This document shows, piece by piece, positions 16,489 through 60,441 of a DNA stretch of 64,000 nt. Source of the stretch: Candidatus Gallimonas merdigallinarum (GTDB lineage: Bacteria; Bacillota; Clostridia; Christensenellales; Borkfalkiaceae); assembly GCA_904390485.1 (NCBI GenBank), contig CAJFLU010000007.1, positions 5,009-69,008 of the forward strand, read 5' to 3'. A program made the translations under genes and the position numbers. Positions within the stretch are counted from its first letter, which is position 1. Each line of letters opens with the position of its first letter. Under the pieces are notes generated by a model, which was not told where the DNA came from, made no database searches, and worked only from the letters and a program-made list of their open reading frames with translations.

Positions 16489-16496
16489 GGCAGAAG

Positions 16497-34186: not shown

Positions 34187-34222
34187 CTACCCTTATCTTC
34201 CCCACAAATTACCCCACAATTG
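34187..34222 (+). repeat. Arm-type repeat block, left (CTACCCTTATCTT-CCCCACAAATT-ACCCCACAATT)
   Basis: Matches the block at 60005-60042 in the same orientation. Confidence 0.6.
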
Positions 34223-34275
34223 AAATTATTATTCTAATTAGGTGGATTACATAATGCAATCCATCTGTCAGATGT

Positions 34276-35502: not shown

Positions 35503-35698
35503 AAAATCACCATTCCGAGAAAAATAAAGTGTAACTTTATTATACTCAAAACAAAGTGGTTTGTCAAATAAAAAATGTAACATCGAAAATAAATATTTTT
35601 TAAGGATACCGTTCTCGAAAGGGAACGGCATTTTTTTATTTATAATTGTAATGAGCTTTTCAAAACTTGGATTATATTTACCTTTTTTTCAAAAACTA

Positions 35699-35727
35699 TT
35701 GGCAATGATTTAATTGTATTTTATAAT
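35699..35727 (+). promoter_or_regulatory. Sigma-A promoter of the AraC-family gene
   Basis: TTGGCA - 17 nt - TATAAT. Confidence 0.6.
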
Positions 35728-35755
35728 ACGGGTAGCGATCGAGCCCGAAAATCGT

Positions 35756-35793
35756 GCGGGATATATCCCGCATTCGGTATGCAATACCGAATG
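35756..35793. promoter_or_regulatory. Two abutting perfect palindromes in the AraC leader
   Basis: GCGGGATA|TATCCCGC (16 bp) and CATTCGGTAT-gca-ATACCGAATG (10-bp arms). Confidence 0.55.
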
Positions 35794-35818
35794 AAACTTC
35801 TTAACGAGGGAGGAAGCA

Positions 35819-36694: not shown

Positions 36695-36739
36695 GGCGGC
36701 TCGGCGGAATTCGGGAAATAAATATGTTAAGGAGAAGTT

Positions 36740-40403: not shown

Positions 40404-40419
40404 AAACAAGGAGAAAACT

Positions 40420-42285: not shown

Positions 42286-42297
42286 GGAGGGAAGAAG

Positions 42298-43326: not shown

Positions 43327-43369
43327 ACAGGAAGCGTCAATCGAAGATTGATAGAAATAAGGAGGAATT

Positions 43370-46609: not shown

Positions 46610-46630
46610 GCCGATATACAGGCGCAGGCA

Positions 46631-46662
46631 CTCCCGCCGTTAAAACGGCGGGAGCAAATTTT
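46631..46662 (+). terminator. Intrinsic terminator inside the cargo locus
   Basis: CTCCCGCCGT-TAAA-ACGGCGGGAG then CAAATTTT. Confidence 0.65.
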
Positions 46663-46674
46663 AAGAGGTTTGCT

Positions 46675-48120
46675 ATGAAATTTTTGAAACGAATACTCGG
46701 CGTATTTTTATCGGCGGTGTGTCTTCTTTGTTTTGCCGCTTGCGGCGAAACGGACTACGGCACGCTAACGGTTGCTGATATCGAAAACTTAAAAATCGGC
46801 GAAACGCGGGAAATTTCCGCCTTGTTTTCTAACGAAGAATACGCTTCGGCAATCGAATACGAGTTCAAGGGAAACGCGATCAAGATCGAAGACGGAATGG
46901 TGACCGCGCTATCGGGCGGGCGCACGGTTCCCGTTACGGCAAAAACAAAGCACCACGAAACGACGTTCACGGTAAAAACTTCTACCGAGCGGTACGATAA
47001 CGGCACGCTTACGATTGAGAATATCGAAAATCTTCCCGTCGGGCAGAGAATAAAAATAAACGCCGTATTTACGCCGTCGGGCGTGTATGAGCCCATTTCT
47101 TATACGTTTGAGGGAAACGATATCGAGATTTCAAACGGTTACGTCCGTGCGCGTGTGCCCGATAAAACGGTTACCGTAACGGCGAAAACGGCTCATCACG
47201 AAGTGACCTTTACAGTGTCGACCGTCTGCCCCGATGAGGTAAAATATTACGATATTTATATCATTGCGGGGCAGAGCAATGCGGCGGGCTATTCCTCCAA
47301 GGGGGGAAATCTCGGCGGCGTATTCGAAAATATCAGCTATGCGGGCGAAGTCAATGCGCCGCGCAACGGCGGAACTCCTGCGCAAAGCTATCTTTCTTAT
47401 CCGTTTTTGTCGGAGGTGAAAGAGGGGCTCGGAAAAGGCTCGTCGTTTATCGGTCCCGAATACGGTATGGCGGAGACTTTAAACGGTCATTATTCCGAGA
47501 GCAACCGCGCTATGATTTTGAAAACGGCGGCAGGCGGTACAAGTCTTTTCAATTCGACGGGCGGCGAAAACAACGATTGGGGAAATTGGTATCCCCGTTC
47601 ACAATGGGGTAGAAATACCGTGAACGCTTCCGCAAGTCCGATGGGAGTACTCTATCAGAGTCTGGTCGATAATTTTGCTGCCGTTTATTCACAGCTTGTC
47701 GAATACGGATATACGCCGCGTGTGCAGGGTATGGCGTGGATGCAGGGCGAGGCGGATTTGGGCAATCCGAACGGCTATAAAACGCTGTTGAAGGCGTTAA
47801 TCACGGATATCCGCACCGACTTAAAGGAAATCACGGGCGACGAGAGTCTTGAAAGTATGCCGTTTGTAATCGGGGAAATTGCAACTTCGTTTGCCTATGC
47901 AAATAATTCGCAGGTGCCCGCGTTCGTAACAATGCAGCGCGCCGTCGCCTCTGAAATGGAAAACGTATATACGGTCAAGACGGATGATTTGATCATCGTA
48001 AATGCCGACGGCACGGTAAACGGAACGGACCAATATCATTTTAATAAAAACGATTCCCGTACGCTCGGCAAACGCTTCGGCGAGGCGCTTTGGAACAATG
48101 CCCGCCGCGACAATAATTGA
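46675..48120 (+). CDS. Lipoprotein: two Ig-like repeats + SASA-type (sialate O-acetylesterase-like) carbohydrate esterase domain
   Basis: Lipobox FAAC. IIAGQSNAAGYS (GQSN motif), WMQGEAD. Confidence 0.75.
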   Translation: MKFLKRILGVFLSAVCLLCFAACGETDYGTLTVADIENLKIGETREISALFSNEEYASAIEYEFKGNAIKIEDGMVTALSGGRTVPVTAKTKHHETTFTVKTSTERYDNGTLTIENIENLPVGQRIKINAVFTPSGVYEPISYTFEGNDIEISNGYVRARVPDKTVTVTAKTAHHEVTFTVSTVCPDEVKYYDIYIIAGQSNAAGYSSKGGNLGGVFENISYAGEVNAPRNGGTPAQSYLSYPFLSEVKEGLGKGSSFIGPEYGMAETLNGHYSESNRAMILKTAAGGTSLFNSTGGENNDWGNWYPRSQWGRNTVNASASPMGVLYQSLVDNFAAVYSQLVEYGYTPRVQGMAWMQGEADLGNPNGYKTLLKALITDIRTDLKEITGDESLESMPFVIGEIATSFAYANNSQVPAFVTMQRAVASEMENVYTVKTDDLIIVNADGTVNGTDQYHFNKNDSRTLGKRFGEALWNNARRDNN

Positions 48121-48129
48121 GGGGCATTT

Positions 48130-49536
48130 ATGAAATTTTTGAAACGAATACTCGGTATATTTTTATCCGCGGTGTGTCTTCTTTGTTTTGCCGCCTGCGG
48201 TGAAAAAGACTACGGCACGCTAACGGTTGCCGATATCGAAAATTTAAAAATCGGTGAAACTCGGGAAATTTCCGCCGTGTTTTCCAACGGGGAATACGCT
48301 TCGGCAATCGAATACGAATTCAAGGGCAACGCAATCAAAATCGAGGAAGGAAAGGTGACCGCGCTTTCGGGCGGGCGGACGGTGCCCGTTACGGCAAAGA
48401 CAAAGCACCACGAAACGACGTTCACGGTAAAAACTTCTACCGAGCGGTACGATAACGGCACGCTTACGATCGAAAATATCGAAAATCTTCCCGTCGGGCA
48501 GAGGGTGCAAATAAACGCAGTGTTCACGCCGACTGGCGTGTACGAACCCATTTCTTATACGTTCGAAGGGGATGATATTGAAATTTTAAACGGATATATT
48601 ACGGCAATCGTTCCCGATAAAACGGTTGAAATTACCGCAAAAACGAGGTATCATGAAATTATGTTTACTGTAAAAACTGTGCGCCCTGTAACGCTTGTGC
48701 GCAACGTAACCGCATGGGTGGGATATCACGCCAGTCCGCTTCCCGACGTGTCTTATTTCAAAGAGGGCGAAGCGATTACGTGGAGCGGGGAAAATCCCGA
48801 AATCGCCGTGCTCGATAAGACGAAGCGCACCCTGTCTGCGGTTGCGGCGGGATCGTTTACGCTCACCGCGCAGACCGAGGGCTATTCCGAGATTTATAAT
48901 GTTACTGTAAAGTCCGTTTCGAAAACAGGCAAAAAATGGCAGCTCGATCAGGATAAAACGGATTATGCCAATCAAATGAAGAGCAAGTGGAACACCGACG
49001 GAAACGACGGAAAGACGACGCTGTTTATCGGCGATTCCTTCTTCGACGTGCGCTATTTCTGGACGAACTTTTACAGTTTGTACGCTGGGAAAGACGCGAT
49101 TTGTGCGGGGATCAGCGGGGCGACAACGTACGATTGGGAACAGTATGCAGAAACGTTTTTAAGGCAAACCGCACCGAAGAATCTTGTTGTAAATCTCGGC
49201 ACGAATAATTTTTACGACGATCACGATTCGTCGGAAACGGCAACCGAGAGTTTGCAGAGAATGTTCACGCTCATTCACAGCATTCTGCCCGATACGAAGA
49301 TTTATTACTTTGCCATTACACAGCGGAGCGATACCTCGTATAAAACGGGCGTGAGCGAAACGAACGCCGCCATGAAAGCCTGGTGTGAGGGATATTCCTT
49401 TATAACCTTCCTTGATACCGAACAGGCGTTGACGGTGGACACGCTTTTGTCGGACGGAATTCATCCCAAATTAGAGACTTACAATGTGTTTATGGGTGCG
49501 CTTGCACAGAGCAAAATAGAGATGGAAAATAAATAG
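48130..49536 (+). CDS. Lipoprotein: the same two Ig-like repeats + extra Ig-like domain + SGNH/GDSL hydrolase domain
   Basis: Lipobox FAAC. SGNH blocks LFIGDSF, GISGAT, LGTNN, SDGIHP. Confidence 0.75.
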   Translation: MKFLKRILGIFLSAVCLLCFAACGEKDYGTLTVADIENLKIGETREISAVFSNGEYASAIEYEFKGNAIKIEEGKVTALSGGRTVPVTAKTKHHETTFTVKTSTERYDNGTLTIENIENLPVGQRVQINAVFTPTGVYEPISYTFEGDDIEILNGYITAIVPDKTVEITAKTRYHEIMFTVKTVRPVTLVRNVTAWVGYHASPLPDVSYFKEGEAITWSGENPEIAVLDKTKRTLSAVAAGSFTLTAQTEGYSEIYNVTVKSVSKTGKKWQLDQDKTDYANQMKSKWNTDGNDGKTTLFIGDSFFDVRYFWTNFYSLYAGKDAICAGISGATTYDWEQYAETFLRQTAPKNLVVNLGTNNFYDDHDSSETATESLQRMFTLIHSILPDTKIYYFAITQRSDTSYKTGVSETNAAMKAWCEGYSFITFLDTEQALTVDTLLSDGIHPKLETYNVFMGALAQSKIEMENK

Positions 49537-49543
49537 AAATAAT

Positions 49544-51055
49544 ATGGGTTTGGTATTGGAAAAGACAAAGCTTCAAAAGAGCGAACAGAGAAGTTATTAT
49601 TGCACCTGGTTGGCGCAGAATTTTCTCGCGTCGGAAACGGGAGAAAAGCGTGCCGCCGTGCGCCCCGAATTTACGGGTGATCAGGGCGCAAACTGCGCAC
49701 GCGACAAGGTGAACGAACGCACAGTGTTTGGTAAGGGCGGCATGGCGCAAGTCAATGCGCGTGAAGATCTCTATCTCGTGCTCGACGACGGCTGGGACGT
49801 GCCGTTCGATTTTGATCCTTATGTACATAAGGATTACTTTGGCTCGCTCGAAGTGAATGAGCAGCGTTTTCCCTGTGCAAAGGGTAGCCCCGCGGAAAGG
49901 CTGAAAATACTCAACGAGCGAGCAAAGGGCTTGGGTTGGAAAGGAATCGGTATCTGGGTAGCGGCGCAAAAGTGCGGCAAGGATAATAATTCGCCCTTTT
50001 CCGAGGCGGACAAAGAATATTGGCGGGAGCGGATACTTTGGTGCAAACAGGCGGGCGTAACGTATTGGAAAGTGGATTGGGGAACGTTGGAACACGACAA
50101 TGCGTTTCGTAAGTTTTTAACCGATACTGCACGGGAGCTATATCCCGAGCTTACGATCGAACAGGCAATTTGCTGTCCGCCCGTCAACGGTGTGACCGAG
50201 CGGTTGCAGCGCGGAGAAGTAGGAAGATTTCAAGACGATGAAAAAATCAGCGGGCTTTCCAAGCAAGCCGTATCGTTCAGCGAAGTATTCCGCACGTACG
50301 ACGTAACGCCGCAGTTTTCCGTGGCGAGTACGTTGGACAGAGCCGCATATTTATTGTCGTATGCGAAGGGCTATTTGAACGTGGAGGACGAGTTGTACCT
50401 TGCGGCGGCTCTGGGCTGTCAGATGGGCATTATGCGTTCGGTCTACGGCAAGGGGTTGGACGATTGGGACGATAGTGACCGATTGCGCGAAGCGGACGCC
50501 GCGCTGTTCTGGCAGAGAATCGCGCCGCCGTTTGCAGGCGGAAGCGTGGAAATCAGCAAAGAAATTCTTACGGACGAGTGGACGTTTCAAGAAAACGAGT
50601 TTTGGTATCAACCGATAAACGGACGGACGATCCGTCAGGGCGCGCCCGCAGCCGTATCGCGCAACGCGCCGCTACCGGAAGTTTCGGCAGGACAAACGGG
50701 TGCAAAACCGTTCGTTGTCTGCGCGCTCAATCCGAACGGTGTGTATTCCGTCGCTGTGCTTCCCCGCACGTTGAACGGGAAGCGGGCTTACGTCGGGGGA
50801 GATATTATTTGCTCTTTGAAAAAGATGCCCGAAAAGATTGCCGTTTTCGGCTTTGCCGACAGTTTTGAATTTCAGTGGTACCAGGGCAAAGCGGTAAACC
50901 TTACGGCGGTAAGTATGCTCAGCGGGAGCGAAGTCGAGATTCCGCTTTCGGAAAAGGGCAACAGCTTTCAACTCGATGCGGACTTAATGAAAAAACTATG
51001 GAAAACCGACGATAAATCTGCCCCCGCGGTGTTGCTTACGCTACGCGGTAATTGA
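49544..51055 (+). CDS. Uncharacterised cytoplasmic protein, possibly a distant clan GH-D (GH27/36-like) TIM-barrel glycosidase
   Basis: LVLDDGWD and VTYWKVDWG resemble the DDGW and K-x-D motifs present in the neighbouring GH36 (DDGWFG, YVKWDMN). No signal peptide. Confidence 0.4.
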   Translation: MGLVLEKTKLQKSEQRSYYCTWLAQNFLASETGEKRAAVRPEFTGDQGANCARDKVNERTVFGKGGMAQVNAREDLYLVLDDGWDVPFDFDPYVHKDYFGSLEVNEQRFPCAKGSPAERLKILNERAKGLGWKGIGIWVAAQKCGKDNNSPFSEADKEYWRERILWCKQAGVTYWKVDWGTLEHDNAFRKFLTDTARELYPELTIEQAICCPPVNGVTERLQRGEVGRFQDDEKISGLSKQAVSFSEVFRTYDVTPQFSVASTLDRAAYLLSYAKGYLNVEDELYLAAALGCQMGIMRSVYGKGLDDWDDSDRLREADAALFWQRIAPPFAGGSVEISKEILTDEWTFQENEFWYQPINGRTIRQGAPAAVSRNAPLPEVSAGQTGAKPFVVCALNPNGVYSVAVLPRTLNGKRAYVGGDIICSLKKMPEKIAVFGFADSFEFQWYQGKAVNLTAVSMLSGSEVEIPLSEKGNSFQLDADLMKKLWKTDDKSAPAVLLTLRGN

Positions 51056-51083
51056 GCGGTCTTTATTACGGAAGGAGATAAAA

Positions 51084-53036
51084 GTGGATAAAACAATTTA
51101 TTTGGGTGCGGCGTACTATCCCGAACTGTGGGATGAGAGCGAAGTGGAAAAGGACATTGCCCGTTGCAAAGAGTTAGGCGTAAACTGTTTGCGCGTGGGC
51201 GAATTCGCATGGGGCAAAATGGAACCGAAAGAGGGAAAATACGATTTTGCTTGGCTTTTACGCGTGGTAGAAAAACTGCACGAAAACGGCATATATACCG
51301 TGATGTGCACGCCCACCTGTACGCCGCCGAGATGGATGCTGAACAAATACCCCGAAATGCGCAGAGTCATGCCCGATCTGATCAAATCGGACGTATCCTC
51401 ACGGTGTCACGTGTGCAAGTCGTCGCCCGTAGCGCGGGAGAAGAACAAACAAATCGTCACGCAAATGGCGAAGGTATTTGCGGGGCACAAGGGAATCATC
51501 GGTTGGCAGATCGACAACGAAATTTTCCCTTACGGCGACGGTTGTTTCTGCGAAAACTGTAAAAAGGGTTTCCGTTCGTACTTAAAAGAAAAATTCGGGT
51601 CGGAGAAAAAGCTGAATAAGGCATGGGGTATGGCGCGCTGGTCGCTTGAATACGATTCGTTTGAAGAGGTCGAACCGCCCTACCCCGCGCAGTGGCGGCA
51701 CCCTTCCTTACAAAAGGCATGGTGGGCTTATCAGTGCGGACTTATAAAATCTTTCATTGAAGAACAGGCGCAAATCTTACATAACTACGGTTGCGGGAAC
51801 GTCGGCACGGATATGATGGCGCAAAATTATTTGGACTATTATGCCGTGAACGAGAAATTAGACGTCGTACAGTACAATCATTACGATACGGCGGATCGGC
51901 TCTATACGAATGCCTTTGCATACGATTTTCTGCGTTGTGTAAAGGATAAACCGTTTTGGGTAACGGAGACGCAGGTCGGCTGGAACGGGAGCAATTATGC
52001 CGACTGCGGCTACCGCGCCGTCGGGGCTTGCTATGCAAATACCTGGCTGCCGATCGCAAAGGGCGCGGAGATGAATTTGTATTGGCTGTTCCGCACGCAT
52101 CCGAACGGGCATGAAATCGGGCACGGTGCGCTGTACTCTACGGCGGGCAGAAGCTACCGCGTAAGCGAAGAAGTGAAGAAGGCGGGCGAAGAATTTGTAA
52201 AATGCGAAAAATTCTTAACAGAAACAAAAATTGAAAGCAAAATTGCTTTGCACTATTCGGCGATGGCGATGAATTCGTTTTCCTTCGCGCCGCTCATCAA
52301 GGATTTTGACTACCGTCAAACAATCCTCGAAATATATCACGCGGCGTTGCGCCACTATAACGTAGACGTCATCGACACGCCGCATACGCTCGACGGATAC
52401 GAAGTGATTGTATCTCCTTTCCTTGCGTGTGCGGACGAAAACGGTTTTAAGGAACGTATCACCGAATGGGTAAAGCAGGGCGGCACGTGGATCGTAGGCC
52501 CGATGAGCGATATCATGGACGGCAACGTGAGCCGTTACGCGCACGCGCCGTACGGCTTTTTGGAAGAGCTTGCGGGGGTATATACGAAGTATCAGAAGCC
52601 CGTTGCAAACGACGTTTTCAAGGCGCAGTGGATGAACGACGGCGACTGTAAAATCGGCATGTGCTACGACGCATACGAGTGCTTAGAGGGGACGAAGAGC
52701 CTTGCTCACTATACGGCGGGCGAGTTCACGTCGCTCTCGGTGATTACCGAGCGGAACGTAGGAAAGGGAAAAATCATTCTCGTGGGAAGCGTTATTTCGG
52801 ACGGCGATTTACTGCGGCTTGTGGGCCGTGCGCCGATTGCGGAAGCAAGCGATAACGTTGTACTCGTAGAGCGGATCGGAGAAGAGCAGGGAATGATTGC
52901 CGTAGAAATCGAAAATAAGAGCGGATATCTAGTATTGGACGGAGAATATACCGATCTAATAACAGGAAAAAATTTGACGGGCAAAATCGAGGTTTCGCCC
53001 TATGAAGTTTTTGTATTGAAAAAAGGAAGTAAATAG
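51084..53036 (+). CDS. Glycoside hydrolase family 42 beta-galactosidase
   Basis: GAAYYPELW, LRVGEFAWGKMEP, GWQIDNE, Cys cluster C-x-C-x2-C, 650 aa. GTG start. Confidence 0.9.
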   Translation: MDKTIYLGAAYYPELWDESEVEKDIARCKELGVNCLRVGEFAWGKMEPKEGKYDFAWLLRVVEKLHENGIYTVMCTPTCTPPRWMLNKYPEMRRVMPDLIKSDVSSRCHVCKSSPVAREKNKQIVTQMAKVFAGHKGIIGWQIDNEIFPYGDGCFCENCKKGFRSYLKEKFGSEKKLNKAWGMARWSLEYDSFEEVEPPYPAQWRHPSLQKAWWAYQCGLIKSFIEEQAQILHNYGCGNVGTDMMAQNYLDYYAVNEKLDVVQYNHYDTADRLYTNAFAYDFLRCVKDKPFWVTETQVGWNGSNYADCGYRAVGACYANTWLPIAKGAEMNLYWLFRTHPNGHEIGHGALYSTAGRSYRVSEEVKKAGEEFVKCEKFLTETKIESKIALHYSAMAMNSFSFAPLIKDFDYRQTILEIYHAALRHYNVDVIDTPHTLDGYEVIVSPFLACADENGFKERITEWVKQGGTWIVGPMSDIMDGNVSRYAHAPYGFLEELAGVYTKYQKPVANDVFKAQWMNDGDCKIGMCYDAYECLEGTKSLAHYTAGEFTSLSVITERNVGKGKIILVGSVISDGDLLRLVGRAPIAEASDNVVLVERIGEEQGMIAVEIENKSGYLVLDGEYTDLITGKNLTGKIEVSPYEVFVLKKGSK

Positions 53037-53037
53037 T

Positions 53038-55194
53038 ATGATCAAAGCAAACGGAAAAACCTTTTTATTGCAGGGAAAAAATTACAGCTATGCGATGCAC
53101 GTGCTGGAATCGGGCTTTTTACAGCACTTGTATTACGGCGGAAAAATTACGGAAACCGATTTGGATTATTTAATCGAAATCGGCGATACCAATGCGCCGC
53201 ATATCGATATGAACATGGACATGGCGTTCGATAGAATGCTCTCCGAATACGGTTTTTACGCGCGCGGCGATTACAGGGAAGCGACCGCCGTCTTTGAGCG
53301 GAAAGACGGGGCAAGTATGTCGCGTCTGCGCTATCAAAGCTACCGTGTGGAAAAGGGCGCGCCGAACGTAAAGGGTATGCCGCACGTGCGCCAAGGGGAC
53401 GAGACGCTTGTCATTACCCTCAAAGACGATTTTTCCGATATCTCGGTGGATTTGTATTACACCGTTTGCGACAATTCGGACGTGCTTGTCCGCAGCTCGG
53501 TCATTCGCAACACGGGGCGCGAGTCGATCATGCTTAAAAAAGCGTTCTCCTTCCGCGCGCAGCTGCCAAACGGCAATTACCGCATGATGCGTCTTGCCGG
53601 CACTTGGGGACAGGAGCGCATTCCCGAAATTGCGCCTATCGCGCACGGAATTACCCGCTTGCAATCCATTCAAGGTTGTACTTCCCATAACACGAATTGT
53701 TTTATGGGCATTCTCAAAGAGGGCTGCACGGAGGATTCGGGCGAGTGCCTCGGCATACAGCTTATATACAGCGGCTCGTTTGCCTTAACGGCAGAGTGGT
53801 GCAAAAACGGTCCGCTCACGTTGCAGGGCGGCATCTGCGATACGGGCTTTTCATGGGAGCTGAACGGCGGAGAAGAATTCGTTACGCCGCAGGTCTTGCT
53901 CACCTATTCGGGCGAAGGAATCGGGGGCATGTCGCGGAGCATCCACGACTTTTTGCGCGAGCGCGTAATCAACCCCGCATACGTCTATAAGCGTCGCCCG
54001 ATCGTGGTGAATAACTGGGAGGCAACTTATTTCGATTTTAACGAAGAAAAGCTTTTCCCGATCATCGACGAAGCGGGAAAGCTCGGGATCGATACGTTTG
54101 TATTGGACGACGGCTGGTTCGGAAAACGCGACAGCGACTGGTCGGGACTTGGCGATTGGTTCGTGAACGAGAAAAAGCTGAAAGGCGGGTTAAAAACGAT
54201 TATCGACCGCTGTAAGAAGAACGGCTTAAAATTCGGCTTGTGGTTTGAGCCGGAGATGGTGAACGAGGACAGTGATTTATTCCGCACGCACCCTGATTGG
54301 GCGATCCATAAAGACGGGGTAGAGCCTTGCAGAAGCCGTCAACAGCTTGTATTGGATTTCACGCGCAAAGATGTAGTAGACTATATTTTCGGCGTCGTTT
54401 CCAAGGTGCTCAAAGAGAACGAAATTTCCTACGTGAAATGGGATATGAACCGCAATATTACCGAGGTGTATTCGGCTCAGCTTCCTGCGCACCGTCAGGG
54501 TGAGTTTATGCACCGCTATATTTTAGGCGTGTATGATTTGGCAGAGCGGCTGACTTCCGCATTCCCGAACGTATTTTTCGAAGGCTGTGCAGGCGGAGGC
54601 GGAAGATTCGACGCGGGTATGCTCTATTACTTTTCTCAGATTTGGACGAGCGACGACACCGACGGATTCGAGCGTACAAAGATCGAGTGGGGGACTTCTG
54701 TTTGCTATCCGCTGTCCGCCATGAGCTGTCACGTTTCCGTCTGCCCCAATCACCAAACGCAGAGAATCACTCCCTTTGAAACGCGCGGGAACGTAGCGAG
54801 CCTCGGCGCGTTCGGGTACGAGCTCGATCTTTCCAAGATGACGGAAGAGGAAAAGGCGCTCACCAAAGCGCAGATAGAAAGCTACAAGCGCACGAGTGAG
54901 CTGATTTTGAAAGGTGACTTGTACCGCTTGATGAATCCGCTTGAAAAGAACTATTTCTGTGTTATGGTCGTCAGCAAGGATAAGAGCGAGGCTTACGTTG
55001 TGGGAGAACGTATTCTGGGAATTCCATGCGACTATAATCAATACCTCTATCTGTGCGGCTTAGATGAGAACGCGCTCTACAAAATTGAGGAGCTGAACAT
55101 TACGGCAAGCGGTAAAGCGCTTCAAAACGCGGGCTTGCTTTTGCCGAAGCTTTCCGATTTCGGCAGTTGGGCGTGGCATCTGAAAAAAGTATAA
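53038..55194 (+). CDS. Glycoside hydrolase family 36 alpha-galactosidase
   Basis: NNWEATYFDF, FVLDDGWFGKRD, YVKWDMNR, CAGGGGRFD, WTSDDTD. Confidence 0.9.
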   Translation: MIKANGKTFLLQGKNYSYAMHVLESGFLQHLYYGGKITETDLDYLIEIGDTNAPHIDMNMDMAFDRMLSEYGFYARGDYREATAVFERKDGASMSRLRYQSYRVEKGAPNVKGMPHVRQGDETLVITLKDDFSDISVDLYYTVCDNSDVLVRSSVIRNTGRESIMLKKAFSFRAQLPNGNYRMMRLAGTWGQERIPEIAPIAHGITRLQSIQGCTSHNTNCFMGILKEGCTEDSGECLGIQLIYSGSFALTAEWCKNGPLTLQGGICDTGFSWELNGGEEFVTPQVLLTYSGEGIGGMSRSIHDFLRERVINPAYVYKRRPIVVNNWEATYFDFNEEKLFPIIDEAGKLGIDTFVLDDGWFGKRDSDWSGLGDWFVNEKKLKGGLKTIIDRCKKNGLKFGLWFEPEMVNEDSDLFRTHPDWAIHKDGVEPCRSRQQLVLDFTRKDVVDYIFGVVSKVLKENEISYVKWDMNRNITEVYSAQLPAHRQGEFMHRYILGVYDLAERLTSAFPNVFFEGCAGGGGRFDAGMLYYFSQIWTSDDTDGFERTKIEWGTSVCYPLSAMSCHVSVCPNHQTQRITPFETRGNVASLGAFGYELDLSKMTEEEKALTKAQIESYKRTSELILKGDLYRLMNPLEKNYFCVMVVSKDKSEAYVVGERILGIPCDYNQYLYLCGLDENALYKIEELNITASGKALQNAGLLLPKLSDFGSWAWHLKKV

Positions 55195-55206
55195 ACGGAG
55201 AGTTAT

Positions 55207-56940
55207 ATGAAAAAAACAGAATATCCGCGTCCTCAATTTCAAAGAGAAGAGTGGTTGTCCCTCAACGGCGAATGGGAGTTTGCCTACGACGATTCCGACG
55301 AGGGAATTAAAAACGGGTATGATACGGGAACGGTTTTACTCCCCCTTAAAATTAACGTTCCGTTTACCTATCAGTACGAAGCAAGCGGTATCGGTGATAC
55401 CGCTTGCCACGAACGTGTATGGTACAGAAGAACATTCAAAGTAAAGCCCAATAAACGTGTATTATTGTGCTTTAACGGCAGCGATTATATTACCGACGTA
55501 TGGGTGAACGGTAAACACGCTACAACGCACACGGGTGGGTTTGCGCCCTTTTCTTGCGATATAACCGATTATCTAAATGGGGAAGAAAACGTCCTCGTCG
55601 TACGGTGCTACGATAGTTTGGAAACAGCTGTTCCGCGCGGAAAGCAGAGCTGGAAGGCCGAACCGTTCGGTTGTTACTATGTGCCCAATACGGGTATCTG
55701 GCAGAGTGTTTGGCTGGACTTCTTCGGCACGGATTGTGTGGAAAGCTATACCTTACAATCAGATATAGACAATCGAGCAATCAGGGGTGAAATTCATACG
55801 CTGTACGGAAAGGCAGACGAGGCGGAAATCACTCTTTCTTTTCAAGGGAAGCTTTTACAAAAGCAGCGCATTGTGTTGCCGCAGAAACGCACAAGGTTTG
55901 CAATCGAGCTTGCAGACTGCGCATTCGATTTTAACGACATGCTTTGGTCGCCCGAAAAGCCAAATTTGATTTACGTGGATGTGGTGCTTTATGCAAACGG
56001 TGTGGAGTGCGACAAGGCGCATACCCGACTTGGAATGCGCAAAATTCATATCGACAAAGCGGGAAAAATCTGTCTGAATAACCGTCCGTATTTTCAACGG
56101 CTCATTCTTGATCAGGGCTATTGGGTGGAGAGCGGCTTAACACCGCCAAGTGCCGAGGCGCTCAAAAAGGATATTGAGCTTGCCAAAGCAATGGGATTTA
56201 ACGGCGCGCGAAAGCATCAGAAACTTGAAGATCCGTATTTTTACTATTATGCGGAAGAGCTAGGCTTCCTCACTTGGTGCGAAATGCCGAGCGCGTATAC
56301 GTTCTGCGTGGAAGAGGTCGCGGCAATTACAAACGAGTGGCAGGAGATTATCAAAGTTGCCAAAAATTTTACGAGCAATATTGTCTACGTTCCGCTCAAC
56401 GAAAGCTGGGGTGTGCGTGAGATCGGCGTAAACAAAGAGCAACAAGAGTTCGCGCGCAGTTTGTATCATTTAACCAAGTGTTTAGATTGCGAAAAGCTCA
56501 TTTCCACGAACGACGGATTCGAGAACGTCAATCCGACGGATATTGTTTCCATTCACGATTACGACATTGCCAAGGCGGAGCAGTTCCCCATAAAGTACAA
56601 AGCGGGGGATTATAACGGACTCTGTCCGCAGGGTTGGAAATTATTCGCCGAGGGCAATTCTTACGAGGGACAGCCCGTACTGTTCACAGAGTTTGGAGGC
56701 ATGATGCTCAAAGAACAAGGCGTCGAAGGCTGGGGCTATAACGGCTGTGAAGAGAATGCAGAATCCTTTTGCAAGCACCTCGAAGAGCTTGTTAAGGGCA
56801 TTGCACAAACGGAGTTTCAGGGCTTTTGTTATACGCAGTTGACCGACGTACAGCAAGAGGTGAACGGGCTTTTGCGTGCCGATCATACGCCAAAGTTTGA
56901 TTTGGCGAAGATAAAGAATTTAACAGAAAAAATCATATAA
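55207..56940 (+). CDS. Glycoside hydrolase family 2 enzyme (specificity not assignable)
   Basis: YPRPQFQREEWLSLNGEWEF, VWVNGKHATTHTGGFAPF, NGARKHQK, acid/base PLNESWG, ~577 aa short GH2 form. Confidence 0.8.
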   Translation: MKKTEYPRPQFQREEWLSLNGEWEFAYDDSDEGIKNGYDTGTVLLPLKINVPFTYQYEASGIGDTACHERVWYRRTFKVKPNKRVLLCFNGSDYITDVWVNGKHATTHTGGFAPFSCDITDYLNGEENVLVVRCYDSLETAVPRGKQSWKAEPFGCYYVPNTGIWQSVWLDFFGTDCVESYTLQSDIDNRAIRGEIHTLYGKADEAEITLSFQGKLLQKQRIVLPQKRTRFAIELADCAFDFNDMLWSPEKPNLIYVDVVLYANGVECDKAHTRLGMRKIHIDKAGKICLNNRPYFQRLILDQGYWVESGLTPPSAEALKKDIELAKAMGFNGARKHQKLEDPYFYYYAEELGFLTWCEMPSAYTFCVEEVAAITNEWQEIIKVAKNFTSNIVYVPLNESWGVREIGVNKEQQEFARSLYHLTKCLDCEKLISTNDGFENVNPTDIVSIHDYDIAKAEQFPIKYKAGDYNGLCPQGWKLFAEGNSYEGQPVLFTEFGGMMLKEQGVEGWGYNGCEENAESFCKHLEELVKGIAQTEFQGFCYTQLTDVQQEVNGLLRADHTPKFDLAKIKNLTEKII

Positions 56941-57007
56941 ATAATTTTTTTGAATCTATTGAATGGTTAACCACCATAGAGCAAATAAATAGTTGCTAAA
57001 TAAGGTT

Positions 57008-57044
57008 AAAGTCGGTGATACGAGAATTTATCAGCGACTTTTTT
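57008..57044 (+). terminator. Intrinsic terminator after the GH2 gene
   Basis: AAAGTCG ... CGACTTT stem with inner TGAT/ATCA pairs, followed by a T-run. Confidence 0.55.
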
Positions 57045-57177
57045 ATGCTCTTTTTTCGGTGTCTTTCGCTTTATTGAGAGTGAAAGAGAATACAATTTGG
57101 AGGTTAAAACAATGACAATTAGACCGCCTTAATCGGCAGACAAGTGGAAAACAAAAGCCCCCTGCAAGGGCGAACGG

Positions 57178-57228
57178 GATACAAAAGCGAAGCGTTGTAT
57201 CTTAGTGAGATAAGGTTACAAAGTAACC
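57178..57228 (+). promoter_or_regulatory. Candidate oriT region (two inverted repeats)
   Basis: GATACAA-10 nt-TTGTATC (57178-57201) and GGTTAC-aaa-GTAACC (57214-57228), 27-77 nt upstream of the relaxase gene. Confidence 0.4.
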
Positions 57229-57254
57229 GACATTAAAAAAAGGAGAAAACAGTT

Positions 57255-58484
57255 ATAAGTTATCAAGTTATACGAGTGCAAAAATTTACAAAGGGATCGT
57301 TAGGTAAAATAGGTGGAGAATCCGAACGGACAAGCAACGGACACCGCAACGAAGATATTGACAGCGAGAGAACGCCGCTCAATTACTATTTTAAAAAATC
57401 AGACGGCGGGTTTACATCCACATGGAAAAGTATTTTGAATGAGCTGAATGCTACGTTCAAGGAAACGAAGAAGTCGACGGCGTTTGAAGGGATTATAGTA
57501 ACCTCGGATAAGGCATTTTTTCAGCGGCTTGGTTACGTTGCGGGAGACGAGCCGCCACCCGAGGTGATGAGATTTTTTAATCGGGCTTACAATTTCATAT
57601 TGCGAGAAATCGGGTATCACGGCACAGATCAAAACATTATCTCTGCCGTGATTCATTTTGACGAAACCACGCCGCATTTACAGCTTTATTATCTGCCTAT
57701 CATTGATAAGGGCAAGAAGAAAGTTTATGCCAAAGGCGTGGACGGGAAAGTTTTGCGGAACGAGAAGGGTTCACCGATACAAGCAAAGGATGAACACGGG
57801 AGAGCAATCTATGAATTGAATGAATTGGAACAACCCAAAGTGTGTTCGTCAGATTTTTGGGAACAACGAGGCGGGCAGTTATCGTTCGGTAATTTACAGG
57901 ACGCATTCTATGATGAGGTCAGTATTCGATACGGATTGGAACGCGGCGAAGTCGGCAGCAATAAAAAACATACCACGAAGTATGAGTGGCAGAAGCAACA
58001 ACAGGAAGCCGAGCTTGCGAAAATAGAAGCGCGGGCAGCAATCCGTGAAGATCAGGCGAGCTTTGCTACCGCTATGCGGGACAGGGCGATGAATGAGCTG
58101 AATGAGATTAATGAGCGGAAAGAAATAGCAAGTGAGGAACTCAAACCGTTACAGAAGTATTTAGACGCATTCAAAGAGGCGTTGAAGGGTGATTTGCCAC
58201 TTTCACCTACGAAGTTACGGAAAATGATAGTAGGGCTGACAACCGAATATAAGCGGCTTGAAAGCGAAAAGAAAATTACCGACAGGGACAGAAAAAATCT
58301 TTTTGAGGAATTGCAGAAAGTAGAAAAACGTATTCCCGAATTGGAAAAGTATAAGGCCTTCGTTTCCCTTTTAGTCGATTATGCGCCCGATAAATTAGAG
58401 GAAGCGAAACGAGCGGCGAACGAGAGAAGGAATACACCAAAACCGCCAATCAAAATAAAGACAAGCGGCAATTATAAATTATAA
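57255..58484 (+). CDS. MobV-family (Pre/Mob) relaxase, possibly degenerate
   Basis: HFDETTPHL motif III region and coiled-coil C-terminus. The conserved N-terminus ISYQVIRVQKFTKGSLG starts at an ATA codon 9 nt after AGGAG. The first canonical start is GTG at 57276. Confidence 0.7.
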   Translation: MSYQVIRVQKFTKGSLGKIGGESERTSNGHRNEDIDSERTPLNYYFKKSDGGFTSTWKSILNELNATFKETKKSTAFEGIIVTSDKAFFQRLGYVAGDEPPPEVMRFFNRAYNFILREIGYHGTDQNIISAVIHFDETTPHLQLYYLPIIDKGKKKVYAKGVDGKVLRNEKGSPIQAKDEHGRAIYELNELEQPKVCSSDFWEQRGGQLSFGNLQDAFYDEVSIRYGLERGEVGSNKKHTTKYEWQKQQQEAELAKIEARAAIREDQASFATAMRDRAMNELNEINERKEIASEELKPLQKYLDAFKEALKGDLPLSPTKLRKMIVGLTTEYKRLESEKKITDRDRKNLFEELQKVEKRIPELEKYKAFVSLLVDYAPDKLEEAKRAANERRNTPKPPIKIKTSGNYKL

Positions 58485-58693
58485 AAATTTATAGTGCAAA
58501 TTGCTTGCAATTTGCAGAAAAATAAGGTAGGATACAAACCCAGTCGGGAATGTATCTCTCATACAACTTAATACAAAATGACAACTGAATAATTGAAAAA
58601 TTATAAGGAGAAGTTTTGTGAATATGGTAAGAGAACATAGTAGCCATTTAGCGAGAGAACATTGTAGCTACACAAATAACAATGTAAGGAGAT

Positions 58694-59989
58694 TTGAAAC
58701 AACAAGAACTAATTGAAATTTTAACGCAACTCAACACTCTTGATTTGAAGGGCGAACAGAAAACTGAAATGACAGCGAAAGTATTGCAGATGGCGGCAGA
58801 TTCCGTTACTCTCGAAACGCTGAAATCGTTACTCGTATCCGACAAATCAAAACAGACGGCAACACCCGTATTCGAGGAAGCCGTCAGACCTTTGGGAAGA
58901 AAGTCAAAACTCGGGTTTACTTTAACGAAAAAGGAGATAAAAAGTATGCCCGAAAAACACAGAAAAATATTTGCCTGTGAAAACAGGATCATTCCGTATC
59001 GCTTTCATAAGGGCGTGTACGAAGCACATTACCGCAGAGACGGTTTCAAAGTATTCGCTTGCGCAAAAGACTTTAACCAAATGCGCAAGAAGTTCGCAGA
59101 AAAGCTGTTAGCGCAGATGAACGGAGAAATGCCTGTAGTTATTATTGAGAAGGCAAAGCCGTATCGCGCCGCGTTATTCCGCGATTATCTGAACGAGTGG
59201 CTTGAAATCAAGCGTAAAACCTGTAAGCCTTCTACTTGCAAGGAATACGAGCGATTATGTAGTTACAATTTAATACCTGCGTTCGGAGAAAAGCGTTTAG
59301 ACGAATTAACTCGTCCTGTACTTCAAAAGTATTTGTTTGATTTGGTAGAAGAAGGGAAACACCGTACAGCGGAGAAATTACAGCAAATCCTGTGTTGCGT
59401 CTTTGATTTAGCAGTGGAAGATTTGAATATCGTTTCCCCGATGAAGAAGATCGTATTGCCGTATCACGAAGCGAAGAAGGGTTCCGCACTTACGAAAGAG
59501 GAAGAACGACAACTTGTAGATTGGTGTATTGCTCACAAGGATAACGAAGCGGCTTCCGCATTGCTTGTGTTGCTCTACTTCGGTTTACGTCGTTCCGAGC
59601 TGATAACCTTAGAGGTTGAAAACGAAATGCTTTCTTGTACCACGAGTAAGGAACGAATGGGGCGAAATGAAGTTAAAAGGAGTATTCCTTTCACGCCCGT
59701 GTTCAAGCGAGTATTGCCATACGTAGACTTTGAGAAGGCAAAGAATACTAATGTGAACACGATTTACACGACCTTCAAGCGGCTATTCCCGAAACGCCAC
59801 ACGCATGAACTAAGGTACAATTTTATTACGAGAGCCAAAGAATCGGGTTGCAATTTGGAAGCGGTTATGCTCTGGGCAGGACATTCTTTCGATAAAGACG
59901 TAAAGAGTTCCGCCGTTGACAGAGGCTATACAGACTACTCCAATGAATACTTGATTCAAGAGGCTCAAAAAATTGACTATCCGTTATAA
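58694..59989 (+). CDS. int: Tyrosine recombinase / integrase
   Basis: SAM-like N-domain, then GLRRSEL (Arg), HELRYNF (H-x-x-R), AGHS, RGYTDY (Tyr). The exact start is uncertain: TTG at 58694 lies very close to the RBS, and ATGs follow at 58769 and 58790. Confidence 0.85.
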   Translation: MKQQELIEILTQLNTLDLKGEQKTEMTAKVLQMAADSVTLETLKSLLVSDKSKQTATPVFEEAVRPLGRKSKLGFTLTKKEIKSMPEKHRKIFACENRIIPYRFHKGVYEAHYRRDGFKVFACAKDFNQMRKKFAEKLLAQMNGEMPVVIIEKAKPYRAALFRDYLNEWLEIKRKTCKPSTCKEYERLCSYNLIPAFGEKRLDELTRPVLQKYLFDLVEEGKHRTAEKLQQILCCVFDLAVEDLNIVSPMKKIVLPYHEAKKGSALTKEEERQLVDWCIAHKDNEAASALLVLLYFGLRRSELITLEVENEMLSCTTSKERMGRNEVKRSIPFTPVFKRVLPYVDFEKAKNTNVNTIYTTFKRLFPKRHTHELRYNFITRAKESGCNLEAVMLWAGHSFDKDVKSSAVDRGYTDYSNEYLIQEAQKIDYPL

Positions 59990-60004
59990 TTAGGATACAT
60001 AAAA

Positions 60005-60042
60005 CTACCCCACATTTTCCCCACAATTTACCCCACAATTTT
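60005..60042 (+). repeat. Arm-type repeat block, right (CTACCCCACATTTT-CCCCACAATTT-ACCCCACAATTTT)
   Basis: Three direct CCCCACAWTT units. Matches 34187-34222. Confidence 0.6.
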
Positions 60043-60074
60043 GAAGTGAGTAGAGGAAAAAGGACAGCAAAAAA

Positions 60075-60108
60075 GGCGATTTTTAGCCTAAAAACGCTAA
60101 AAATCGCC
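60075..60108 (-). terminator. Intrinsic terminator positioned just after the tRNA-like 3' end (minus strand)
   Basis: GGCGATTTTTA-12 nt-TAAAAATCGCC. On the minus strand it is followed by T6 (60069-60074). Confidence 0.6.
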
Positions 60109-60114
60109 CTAAAC

Positions 60115-60159
60115 TGGCTGGGGTAGCTGGATTCGAACCAACGAATGACGGAGTCAGAG
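60115..60159 (-). other. 3' half of tRNA-Gln(CUG) including encoded CCA. Not an intact tRNA.
   Basis: Minus strand reads CTCTGAC (anticodon loop, CUG) TCCGT CATTC GTTGG TTCGAAT CCAGC TACCCCA G CCA. It parallels E. coli tRNA-Gln ...CAUUCCGAGGUUCGAAUCCUCGUACCCCAGCCA (from memory). No 5' half follows. Confidence 0.7.
60145..60159 (+). repeat. attR core (ATGACGGAGTCAGAG)
   Basis: Identical to 34091-34105. Corresponds to the anticodon loop, 3' anticodon stem and part of the variable loop of the tRNA-Gln fragment. Confidence 0.7.
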
Positions 60160-60441
60160 TTTTCTCTTCTTGCGCAGCTCGTCTTTCTGGGGAATTACAT
60201 CGTCAACGGATGCAGAAGTCCGAAGGAGGAGCTCGGGGAGTACAACGCGCTCGCGGATATGATCTATCGGGAGCGGTACGCGCAGACGACGGGCATATGC
60301 GATCGGGAGGCGGCCGAGGAGAACGAGATCGCGGACGTGCGCGACAGACTGTACGACGAGGTGCGGGAATATCTGGAAGCGTTTGAAGAGGACGTACTGC
60401 GGGAAGGGGCGTTCGGGAAGGCGGAGTGCGCCGCCCTGTAA
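60145..60441 (+). pseudogene. Distal part of the interrupted small gene (98-codon ORF starting at the ATG inside the att core)
   Basis: MTESEFSLLAQLVFLGNYIV... continues the frame of 34046-34105. GC-rich like the host. Function unknown. Confidence 0.6.

What the first reader, a model, noticed from the sequence alone, without database searches (positions are those of the whole stretch)
60066..60159. Element arm reproduces the 3' half of tRNA-Gln(CUG), CCA and a terminator, yet no tRNA gene is present: secondary-site integration
On the minus strand, 60159 to 60115 reads anticodon loop CTCTGAC, 3' anticodon stem, variable loop CATTC, T-arm GTTGG-TTCGAAT-CCAGC, acceptor TACCCCA, discriminator G and CCA. 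An 11-bp hairpin plus T6 (60108 to 60069) follows immediately. This is what a tRNA-targeting integrase element carries so that the target tRNA gene is rebuilt after insertion. The sequence beyond the core (60160 onward) cannot form the 5' anticodon stem (ACGGA is needed, AGAAAA is present) or an acceptor. It is protein-coding instead. The other end (34091-34105) lacks a displaced tRNA 3' end as well. The 15-nt crossover core equals the anticodon-loop segment. The simplest reading is integration into a pseudo-attB that matches only the core, which inactivated a host gene.
Basis: partly seen in the sequence, partly recalled or inferred. Interest (0 to 1): 0.7.

Follow-up and report, generated by a model that had tools for sequence, protein, structure and literature searches.

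The report
tRNA-Gln mobile element at decoy site
A 26-kb mobilizable gene island that normally inserts into the glutamine tRNA(CUG) gene has here inserted into a look-alike sequence inside a small gene of a chicken-gut bacterium; this is a known kind of off-target event, unusually well documented by natural copies at both kinds of site.

Summary
Window 60159-60115 (minus strand) is the 3' 45 nt of tRNA-Gln(CUG) with CCA, followed by a 13-15-bp hairpin and a T run. No tRNA gene is present. The 15-nt repeat at 34091-34105 and 60145-60159 bounds a 26-kb integrative mobilizable element (tyrosine integrase, MobV relaxase, a glycan-utilisation cargo of about 20 kb).

The same integrase and element lie beside an intact tRNA-Gln(CUG) in other metagenome contigs. 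Eight other copies have a displaced tRNA 3' half at the far end. Conspecific contigs (98-99% identical flanks) carry the uninterrupted 113-aa host gene with no tRNA.

Three refinements follow.
- The ancestral target matches the core at only 13 of 15 positions. Both mismatches fall in the hexamer CTGACT (tRNA positions 34-39), which a second secondary site marks as the crossover region.
- A different tRNA-Gln-type element occupies the same site, with either host-type or element-type bases at its junction.
- A rare uninterrupted allele already carries the element-type 15-mer.

The host gene is split from its promoter and first 15 codons. Loss of function is inferred, not shown.

This is ordinary biology (secondary attachment sites, as for ICEBs1 and SGI1) in a previously undescribed element. 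Interest is moderate to low.

The parts
34046..34105 (+). First 20 codons of the interrupted 113-aa host ORF (MTENERMKPVRTVISMTESE). A GGAG ribosome-binding site lies upstream. After the junction the frame runs into element DNA and stops after 10 more codons.
   Evidence: Uninterrupted homologues. Empty-site DNA.
34091..34105 (-). Left copy of the 15-nt direct repeat CTCTGACTCCGTCAT (tRNA positions 32-46). The inferred crossover hexamer CTGACT is at 34103-34098.
34106..60159 (.). Integrative mobilizable element, 26,054 bp, GC 0.40-0.53 against 0.55-0.69 in the flanks.
   Evidence: GC profile. Gene content. The same element in at least 10 other flanking contexts.
34190..34221 (-). Left-arm repeat block (2 x TTGTGGGG plus one degenerate copy), about 85 nt from the core. 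Candidate arm-type integrase binding sites.
   Evidence: family D11, 88% identical to 60009-60040; 4 of the 6 window matches lie in these two blocks, against 1.13 expected.
34276..35631 (-). AAA_14/DUF4143 ATPase gene at the left end of the element. Its role is unknown.
   Evidence: PF13173 6.7e-23, PF13635 4.2e-47.
35819..40403 (+). AraC-family regulator, then an ABC sugar transporter (solute-binding protein and two permeases).
40420..56940 (+). Glycan-utilisation cargo: GH43, two InlB-B-repeat surface proteins, a SASA esterase, a GDSL esterase, one unassigned 503-aa protein, GH42 beta-galactosidase, GH36 alpha-galactosidase, GH2.
57276..58484 (+). MobV-family (Mob_Pre) relaxase.
   Evidence: PF01076, 87.3 bits, cut-off 25.5. 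(NCBIfam MobV, 89.6 bits, below its cut-off of 100).
58694..59989 (+). Tyrosine integrase, 431 aa (SAM-like N domain and catalytic domain).
   Evidence: PF14659, PF22022, PF00589. (phrog_1 integrase, 2.2e-38); the GLRRSEL arginine is conserved among the five full-length integrases (the L023 fragment does not cover it), and H371, R374, H397 and Y412 are invariant in all six sequences.
60009..60040 (-). Right-arm repeat block (2 x TTGTGGGG plus ATGTGGGG), about 105 nt from the core, in the same orientation as the left block.
60067..60110 (-). Intrinsic-terminator-like hairpin (13-15 bp stem, 8-nt loop) and T run, carried by the element directly after the tRNA 3' end.
   Evidence: Identical in all 10 other copies.
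60115..60159 (-). Element-borne 3' half of tRNA-Gln(CUG), positions 32-76 including CCA.
60145..60159 (-). Right copy of the 15-nt repeat. The hexamer CTGACT is at 60157-60152. The two positions that differ from the ancestral host site are 60154 and 60152 (34100 and 34098 in the left copy).
60160..60441 (+). Remaining 93 codons of the host ORF. Together with the ATG inside the core (60145) it forms a 98-aa ORF that lacks the native promoter and ribosome-binding site.

Best explanation
What it is. [quoted passage not shown] Its tyrosine integrase is specific for the anticodon arm of tRNA-Gln(CUG).

How the canonical insertion works. The excised form carries an attP made of an arm repeat block, the core, its own copy of tRNA-Gln positions 32-76 with CCA, a terminator, a second arm repeat block and int. 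Recombination inside the anticodon loop and stem (within CTGACT, positions 34-39) rebuilds a working tRNA from the host 5' half and the element's 3' half, CCA and terminator. The host's own 3' half is left at the far end.

What happened here. In a Candidatus Gallimonas-like chicken-gut bacterium the same reaction took place at a look-alike sequence at codons 16-20 of a 113-aa gene of unknown function. The gene is split from its promoter, ribosome-binding site and first 15 codons. The element's tRNA half and terminator sit there with no partner.

The target site. Its ancestral form (ATGACGGCGGCAGAG) matches the core at 13 of 15 positions, and both mismatches lie inside the strand-exchange region. 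Resolution of the resulting heteroduplex, or cycles of excision and re-integration, most likely wrote the element's two bases into the host site and so produced the perfect 15-nt repeats.

Shown by sequence comparison: the junction positions, the canonical and secondary sites, the empty sites, and the two junction types.

Inferred: integrase catalysis and arm binding, mobilisation by a helper conjugative element through the MobV relaxase, loss of host-gene function, and the conversion mechanism.

The confidence of 0.9 is for secondary-site integration of a tRNA-Gln-specific IME. The site-conversion sub-claim is less certain (about 0.55-0.75).
For: Element anatomy.

Canonical site:
- The identical 431-aa integrase is indexed in 308 blocks of the collection.
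- In L004, L005 and L007 the element's right end continues into TCCGTTGCCTTACCGCTTGGCGACACCCCA. ARAGORN calls tRNA-Gln(ctg) there, and Rfam scores the L004 gene at 57.7 bits.
- L011-L016, L019 and L020 have the displaced 3' half after the left end, followed by at least six different downstream sequences, some without an encoded CCA. L042 shows a further canonical left junction.

Secondary site 1 (the window):
- The junctions are identical in L001, L024-L028 and L029-L031.
- Uninterrupted 113-aa alleles with 98-99% identical flanks occur in L021, L022, L032, L039 and L041. All read ATGACGGCGGCAGAG.
- Of 18 distinct full-length protein alleles, 16 read MTAAEF, one MTAEEF and one MTESEF.
- The outgroup Ca. 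Gallimonas merdigallinarum reads ATGACGGCGGAGGAG, so the host-type bases are ancestral.

Secondary site 2:
- L002 and L018 (one contig) and L017 interrupt an in-frame 373-aa gene.
- The empty allele L044 reads AACTGACTTATC and shares only CTGACT with attP.

Overlap position:
- Both mismatches of site 1 fall at hexamer positions 4 and 6.
- A second, different element in the same site shows the host-type junction in L023 and L046 and the element-type junction in L045.
- An uninterrupted allele with the element-type 15-mer exists (L040).

Precedent: ICEBs1 secondary sites and unequal attL and attR when the 7-bp spacer differs (PMC3715440). IntDOT tolerates heterology in the overlap (PMC2817482).
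Against: - There is no functional evidence: no attP circle or tandem junction was found in the collections scanned.
- No excisionase was recognised.
- The genome's own tRNA-Gln(CUG) could not be examined, so 'secondary because the primary site is absent, divergent or occupied' is untested.
- Two different elements use this site and it exists as a perfect 15-mer allele. In this species it may therefore act as a regular attachment site rather than an accident.
- Element-type bases at both junctions are not what simple heteroduplex segregation predicts (one junction of each type). An extra step is needed: mismatch repair, or prior conversion of the site.
- L040 is not a recent excision derivative of the window haplotype. 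It differs at 33 of 2948 positions in the left flank, as many as a host-type empty allele does.
- The Rfam tRNA model does not score the half-tRNA alone.
Confidence: 0.9

Rival explanations
1. The element-type 15-mer allele of the host gene (as in L040) is a chance standing polymorphism. The element simply integrated into a pre-existing perfect 15/15 match, and no element-driven rewriting of the site occurred.
For: An uninterrupted allele with the perfect 15-mer exists and encodes a full-length protein. It sits on a flank haplotype about 1.1% different from the window's. Every copy of this IME seen at the site has the perfect repeat at both ends.
Against: Both derived bases are exactly the element's bases and lie inside the inferred crossover hexamer, while strains differ by only 1-2% in the flanks. 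My estimate of the chance of those two specific changes is about 1e-5 per site. The outgroup and 17 of 18 full-length alleles have the host-type base at the first position and none but L040 has the second. Element 2 shows both junction types at this site. This is what resolution of a mismatched overlap gives and what is documented for ICEBs1.
Confidence: 0.2
2. In this species the site in the 113-aa gene is a regular, preferred attachment site of this integrase family, not an accidental secondary one. It would be a second target adopted alongside tRNA-Gln.
For: Two different elements occupy it. The IME is found there on at least two flank haplotypes 1.6% apart, while its last 3 kb are identical. 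At least 22 contigs carry the occupied allele.
Against: Empty host-type alleles are far more common: one protein allele alone is on 107 contigs. Both elements carry a tRNA-Gln 3' half, CCA and terminator, which are useless at this site, so tRNA-Gln is what the attP is built for. Most other contexts of the IME are tRNA-Gln. Recombination between strains could spread a single insertion.
Confidence: 0.15
3. The fragment is the remnant of a host tRNA-Gln gene whose 5' half was deleted, with an island next to it.
For: Only the bare observation of a half tRNA next to an integrase.
Against: The empty locus in conspecific strains is a continuous protein-coding ORF with no tRNA. The fragment, terminator and arm repeats are base-for-base identical in copies of the element sitting in unrelated flanks.
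Confidence: 0.01
4. The junctions are an assembly chimera created at a short repeat.
For: None specific. The window probably comes from a metagenome assembly (L001 is 100% identical).
Against: Both junctions recur in independent samples and assemblers: right junction in L001 and L024-L028, left junction in L029-L031. A 15-nt repeat is shorter than usual assembly k-mers.
Confidence: 0.01

Closest known systems
ICEBs1 of Bacillus subtilis: primary attB in tRNA-Leu (trnS-leu2) and secondary attachment sites (Menard & Grossman 2013, PMC3715440)
   Same: A tyrosine-integrase element whose primary site is a 17-bp stem-loop of a tRNA gene (5-bp inverted repeats around a 7-bp crossover spacer). It also integrates into protein-coding genes that resemble the site with 2-12 mismatches. 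The best secondary site is used repeatedly. Mismatches in the spacer give attL and attR with different crossover sequences.
   Different: ICEBs1 is self-transmissible and its secondary sites were obtained in the laboratory in a strain lacking attB. Here the element is an IME with a MobV relaxase and the target is the anticodon arm of tRNA-Gln. The events are seen in wild chicken-gut populations, a second element shares the site, and the occupied copies have identical element-type bases at both ends. The integrases are not close relatives; no comparison beyond family level was made.
Salmonella genomic island 1 and NBU1: IMEs with secondary att sites (PMC2297512; review PMC5704250)
   Same: These are integrative mobilizable elements with a tyrosine integrase and a preferred site. 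They use alternative sites at low frequency, especially when the preferred site is absent, and form tandem arrays.
   Different: The SGI1 primary site is the 3' end of thdF/trmE, not a tRNA. Host phylum, relaxase and integrase are different.
Canonical Firmicute IMEs with a tyrosine integrase and MobV relaxase that target tRNA genes (Guedon et al. 2017, PMC5704250; Coluzzi et al. 2017, PMC5357655)
   Same: Module layout: integrase at one end next to the att site, a MobV relaxase, no T4SS, cargo genes, and integration in part of a tRNA gene with one direct repeat containing the end of the target.
   Different: The cargo here is a glycan-utilisation locus of about 20 kb. The integrase has no close characterised relative: the best phage or plasmid record is 37% identical, and PDB matches are only at E = 1e-4. 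The host is an uncultured Gallimonas-like Clostridia.
Overlap heterology in tyrosine recombination: IntDOT of CTnDOT (PMC2817482); lambda secondary att sites (own knowledge)
   Same: Recombination proceeds although the overlap regions of the two partners differ, and the products carry one or the other partner's bases.
   Different: Tolerance of heterology is inferred here from natural junctions only. The cleavage positions were not mapped.

Membership tests
tRNA-gene-specific tyrosine-integrase element (anticodon-loop sublocation) | Encodes a tyrosine recombinase with the catalytic Arg, His-x-x-Arg, His/Trp, Tyr signature | tested here: met
   PF00589 at 30.5 bits (cut-off 27.1), PF14659 and PF22022. 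phrog_1 integrase at 2.2e-38. The GLRRSEL arginine is conserved among the five full-length integrases, and H371, R374, H397 and Y412 are invariant across all six tRNA-Gln-associated sequences.
tRNA-gene-specific tyrosine-integrase element (anticodon-loop sublocation) | attP carries the 3' part of the target tRNA, so insertion regenerates an intact gene | tested here: met
   L004, L005 and L007 show host 5' half plus element 3' half. ARAGORN calls tRNA-Gln(ctg) in all three, and Rfam scores the L004 gene at 57.7 bits.
tRNA-gene-specific tyrosine-integrase element (anticodon-loop sublocation) | A displaced copy of the tRNA 3' part lies at the distal end in canonical insertions | tested here: met
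   Eight of ten left-end loci, and L042. It is absent in the window, as expected for a non-tRNA site.
tRNA-gene-specific tyrosine-integrase element (anticodon-loop sublocation) | The crossover maps inside the anticodon loop or stem | tested here: met
   attP and canonical attB identity starts at C32. Site 2 shares only CTGACT, positions 34-39. Cleavage positions were not mapped biochemically.
tRNA-gene-specific tyrosine-integrase element (anticodon-loop sublocation) | Arm-type integrase binding sites on both sides of the core; a recombination directionality factor | tested here: inconclusive
   Direct TTGTGGGG repeat blocks lie 85 and 105 nt from the core, but binding was not tested. No Xis-like ORF was recognised.
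Integrative mobilizable element (canonical IME) | Own relaxase but no type IV secretion or coupling-protein genes | tested here: met
   Mob_Pre at 87.3 bits. The NCBIfam MobV equivalog scores 89.6, below its cut-off of 100. No tested ORF hits a conjugation family; the 79-aa and 503-aa ORFs have no Pfam match, and the rest are transport, hydrolase, regulator, surface-repeat or ATPase proteins.
Integrative mobilizable element (canonical IME) | oriT, and mobilisation by a helper element | not tested
   No oriT search or helper identification was attempted. Transfer is inferred from near-identical copies in flanks of GC 0.38-0.63.
Secondary (pseudo-attB) integration | The same element has a different, preferred site elsewhere | tested here: met
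   tRNA-Gln(CUG) in most contexts.
Secondary (pseudo-attB) integration | An unoccupied form of the site exists, is not a tRNA, and resembles attB only partly | tested here: met
   L021, L022, L032, L039 and L041 match 13 of 15 positions with no similarity beyond the core. L040 matches 15 of 15. No tRNA is found in L021.
Secondary (pseudo-attB) integration | The primary site is absent, divergent or occupied in the same genome | not testable with these tools
   Only 64 kb of the genome is available.

The most novel reading that the evidence does not exclude
Integration and excision by tRNA-Gln-specific elements have rewritten two codons of a host gene (Ala-Ala to Glu-Ser) through resolution of a mismatched overlap. 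This turned a 13/15 look-alike into a perfect 15/15 attachment site, which now circulates as a rare allele (L040) and carries the IME in the window. It would be a natural example of a new attB being created by the elements that use it.
Probability: 0.55. Interest if true: 0.5.

Novelty: new member of a known kind. Interest (0 to 1): 0.35.

Why it matters
The result gives a clean natural example of target choice by a tRNA-specific integrase. One and the same element is seen at its tRNA site, at two look-alike sites, and beside the empty forms of both look-alike sites.

Sequence alone narrows the crossover to six bases of the anticodon loop and stem. It also suggests which flanking bases matter (CT on one side, CCGTCAT on the other).

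The element moves a glycan-utilisation locus of about 20 kb between chicken-gut Clostridia. That bears on how carbohydrate-degrading capacity spreads in gut communities.

If the site-conversion reading is right, mobile elements can create their own new landing sites in host genes.

For annotation, an orphan half-tRNA with CCA and a terminator next to an integrase marks an element end, not a decayed tRNA gene.

Tried and rejected
- Rfam on the fragment alone (E up to 10) gave no tRNA match. The covariance model does not score a half-molecule, so identity to full genes elsewhere was used instead.
- The genome-contig scan with the host protein did not return the window's own species. The best hit was 83% identical, Ca. 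Gallimonas merdigallinarum. The host is therefore named only to genus level, and its tRNA-Gln could not be fetched.
- Exact look-ups of eight reconstructed protein variants found nothing. These were the window-background allele with ES, AA, AS or EA at codons 18-19, three other backgrounds with ES, and a 98-aa form starting MTAAEF. The uninterrupted element-type allele was later found on another background.
- I considered L040 as a direct excision product of the window haplotype. This is not supported: 33 differences in 2948 nt of left flank, the same as for a host-type empty allele.
- Independent insertions versus spread by recombination is undecided. Flank haplotypes 1.6% apart carry identical element ends, but the first 245 nt of right flank are identical.
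- The degenerate junction pattern would also match an attP circle or a tandem junction. It found none in the metagenome or viral collections.
- Plasmid, phage and PDB searches found no close characterised integrase relative.
- A literature search for the JFBN01 accession found nothing.
- The decayed-host-tRNA reading and the assembly-chimera reading were rejected (see rivals).
- The third large protein-database search (integrase family breadth) was not run, because the answer would not change the verdict.

Full report
**1. The observation**

Read on the minus strand, window 60159-60115 is CTCTGAC TCCGT CATTC GTTGG TTCGAAT CCAGC TACCCCA G CCA. That is an anticodon loop with CUG, the 3' anticodon stem, a variable loop, a T arm, the 3' acceptor strand, a discriminator and CCA.

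A hairpin with a T run follows at 60110-60067. Its MFE is -34.5 kcal/mol, z = -5.07.

The bases 5' of the fragment (…GAGAAAA) cannot pair with TCCGT. ARAGORN finds no tRNA anywhere in the window and Rfam finds none.

The 15-mer CTCTGACTCCGTCAT occurs exactly at 34091-34105 and 60145-60159. Allowing up to 2 mismatches there are 3 matches against 0.11 expected, and none of 100 shuffles reached 3. No T arm follows the left copy.

**2. What lies between the repeats**

GC falls from 0.55-0.69 in the flanks to 0.40-0.53 between 34 and 60 kb. The 26,054-bp interval encodes, in order:
- an AAA_14/DUF4143 ATPase
- an AraC regulator
- an ABC sugar transporter
- GH43, two surface-repeat proteins, two esterases, GH42, GH36 and GH2
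- a MobV/Mob_Pre relaxase
- a 431-aa tyrosine integrase ending 170 nt from the right repeat

Blocks of TTGTGGGG repeats lie 85 and 105 nt inside each end, in the same orientation. Four of the six matches in the window are there, against 1.13 expected. They look like arm-type integrase sites.

**3. The canonical target**

An exact look-up of the integrase returned many contigs with the same element. The right 11.5 kb is 98-100% identical, in flanks of GC 0.38-0.63.
- In L004, L005 and L007 the sequence beyond the core is TCCGTTGCCTTACCGCTTGGCGACACCCCA, the 5' half of the tRNA. ARAGORN calls a complete tRNA-Gln(ctg), and Rfam scores the L004 gene at 57.7 bits.
- A look-up of the left-end ATPase gave ten more loci. 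In eight of them the left end is followed by CTCTGACTCCGTCATTCGTTGGTTCGAATCCAGCTACCCCA, then at least six different continuations, some without an encoded CCA. This is the displaced 3' half expected at a tRNA site.
- In L011 and L012 the displaced half belongs to another element with a related integrase (40-46% identity), so these are tandem arrays.

The element's target is therefore tRNA-Gln(CUG). Its tRNA half, CCA and terminator exist to rebuild that gene.

**4. The window copy is in a protein-coding gene**

Joining 34046-34105 to 60160-60441 gives one 113-aa ORF with a GGAG ribosome-binding site. Uninterrupted 113-aa homologues exist.
- Their contigs L021, L022, L032, L039 and L041 are 98-99% identical to the window flanks. 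They have the same neighbours (HTH gene, MatE), and no tRNA is found in L021.
- The same two junctions recur in independent samples: L001 and L024-L028 on the right, L029-L031 on the left.
- The host is close to Candidatus Gallimonas from chicken gut.
- After insertion the first 15 codons, ribosome-binding site and promoter are 26 kb away from the rest. An ATG inside the core leaves a 98-aa ORF. Inactivation is likely but inferred.

**5. A second secondary site and the crossover region**

In L002 and L018 (one contig) and in L017 the element interrupts an in-frame 373-aa sigma-70-region-4-like gene of another mobile element. The empty allele L044 reads AACTGACTTATC, so attP and this site share only CTGACT. 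Strand exchange must therefore lie within or at the edges of CTGACT, which is tRNA positions 34-39 (anticodon CUG, A37, C38, U39). The 15-nt repeat in the window is thus wider than the crossover.

**6. The ancestral target matches 13 of 15**

All five empty contigs above read ATGACGGCGGCAGAG where the window reads ATGACGGAGTCAGAG at both ends.
- On the tRNA strand the site is CTCTGCCGCCGTCAT. The mismatches are at hexamer positions 4 and 6 (A37 and U39), inside the crossover region. The flanking CT and CCGTCAT match perfectly, and nothing beyond them resembles the tRNA.
- Of 18 distinct full-length protein alleles, 16 read MTAAEF, one MTAEEF and one MTESEF. One MTAAEF allele alone is on 107 contigs.
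- The outgroup Ca. G. merdigallinarum has the host-type bases, so the element-type bases are derived.

**7. Recurrent use and both junction types**

A different element sits in exactly the same site. It carries GH1, an integrase fragment only 30% identical, other arm sequences and another variant of the tRNA-Gln 3' half. Its right junction is host-type (CGGCAG) in L023 and L046 and element-type (AGTCAG) in L045.

A degenerate-pattern scan also found L040. This is an uninterrupted 113-aa gene carrying the element-type 15-mer, on a flank haplotype about 1.1% from the window's.

The IME itself occurs at this site on at least two flank haplotypes 1.6% apart, while its last 3 kb are identical. The first 245 nt of flank are identical too, so independent insertion and recombination cannot be separated.

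**8. Mechanism**

The best reading is integrase-mediated recombination between attP and a pseudo-attB with two mismatches in the overlap. The documented consequence for ICEBs1 is attL and attR with different crossover sequences after replication (PMC3715440). The IntDOT work shows that some tyrosine recombinases tolerate overlap heterology (PMC2817482).

The two junction types of element 2 fit this. Element-type bases at both ends of the IME need one more step. Either mismatch repair acted, or the IME integrated into an allele already converted by an earlier integration-excision cycle; L040 is such an allele.

A chance polymorphism that produces exactly these two bases is improbable. I estimate about 1e-5 per site at 1-2% strain divergence, but it is not excluded.

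**9. Comparison with known systems**

The phenomenon is established. ICEBs1 integrates into look-alike sites in yrkM, mmsA and others when its tRNA-Leu site is missing. SGI1 and NBU1 have secondary sites. The module layout is that of canonical Firmicute IMEs with MobV relaxases and tRNA-specific tyrosine integrases.

The integrase has no close characterised relative: 37% to a metagenomic record, and PDB hits at E = 1e-4. The element is a new member of a known kind.

**10. Verdict**

- It remains unknown whether the genome's own tRNA-Gln(CUG) is absent, divergent or occupied.
- Interest is moderate to low. The population-level evidence for conversion of the site is the only part a specialist might find noteworthy.

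Noticed in passing
L003, L006, L009, L010, L008 (loci positions ~11416-11430; corresponds to window 60120): In these copies of the IME the similarity stops after CTGGCTG, so only CAGCCA of the tRNA 3' end is kept. In four of them a large serine recombinase gene abuts directly. L008 has a different sequence with a CAT gene. Another element type seems to insert at the acceptor end of the element-borne tRNA half. The rest of the tRNA half was not found within 10 kb.
   Followed up: partly
L011 7529-8707, L012 7529-8863: Tandem arrays at tRNA-Gln. Directly after the IME's left end comes another element's tRNA-Gln 3' half, its own terminator, TTTGGGGAC-type repeats and a related integrase (40-46% identical). 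This points to a family of elements with the same attP architecture.
   Followed up: partly
L017 and L018, 7541-11500: Secondary site 2 lies in a 373-aa sigma-70-region-4-like gene that belongs to yet another element. That element ends in a 394/408-aa integrase (49% identical) followed by a tRNA-Gln 3' half at ~11470-11498. The IME has inserted into a relative of itself.
   Followed up: partly
L023 300-975, L045 and L046 1-2015: 'Element 2' in the same host-gene site carries a GH1 gene and only a 113-aa C-terminal integrase ORF, possibly a decayed integrase. Its tRNA-Gln half differs from the IME's in the T stem and acceptor (CGCCCCA versus TACCCCA).
   Followed up: partly
window 46674-46973 and 48129-48428: A 300-nt direct repeat, 91% identical: the shared N-terminal module (DUF5666-like) of the adjacent SASA-esterase and GDSL-esterase genes.
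   Followed up: no
window 34106-41630 versus 48694-60159: Among copies of the IME the left 7.5 kb (ATPase, AraC, transporter) is only 92.6-97.5% identical, while the right 11.5 kb is 98-100% identical. This suggests a mosaic history.
   Followed up: no
window 22614-22628 (+): CTCCGACTCCGTCAA matches the att core at 13 of 15 positions and is unoccupied. One mismatch lies inside the CTGACT hexamer. It may be chance or another potential pseudo-site.
   Followed up: no
window ~1800-17500: A second low-GC stretch (0.37-0.49) is a surface-polysaccharide biosynthesis cluster: glycosyltransferases, RmlA/B/D-like enzymes, a DegT aminotransferase and a flippase. It is not a mobile element.
   Followed up: partly
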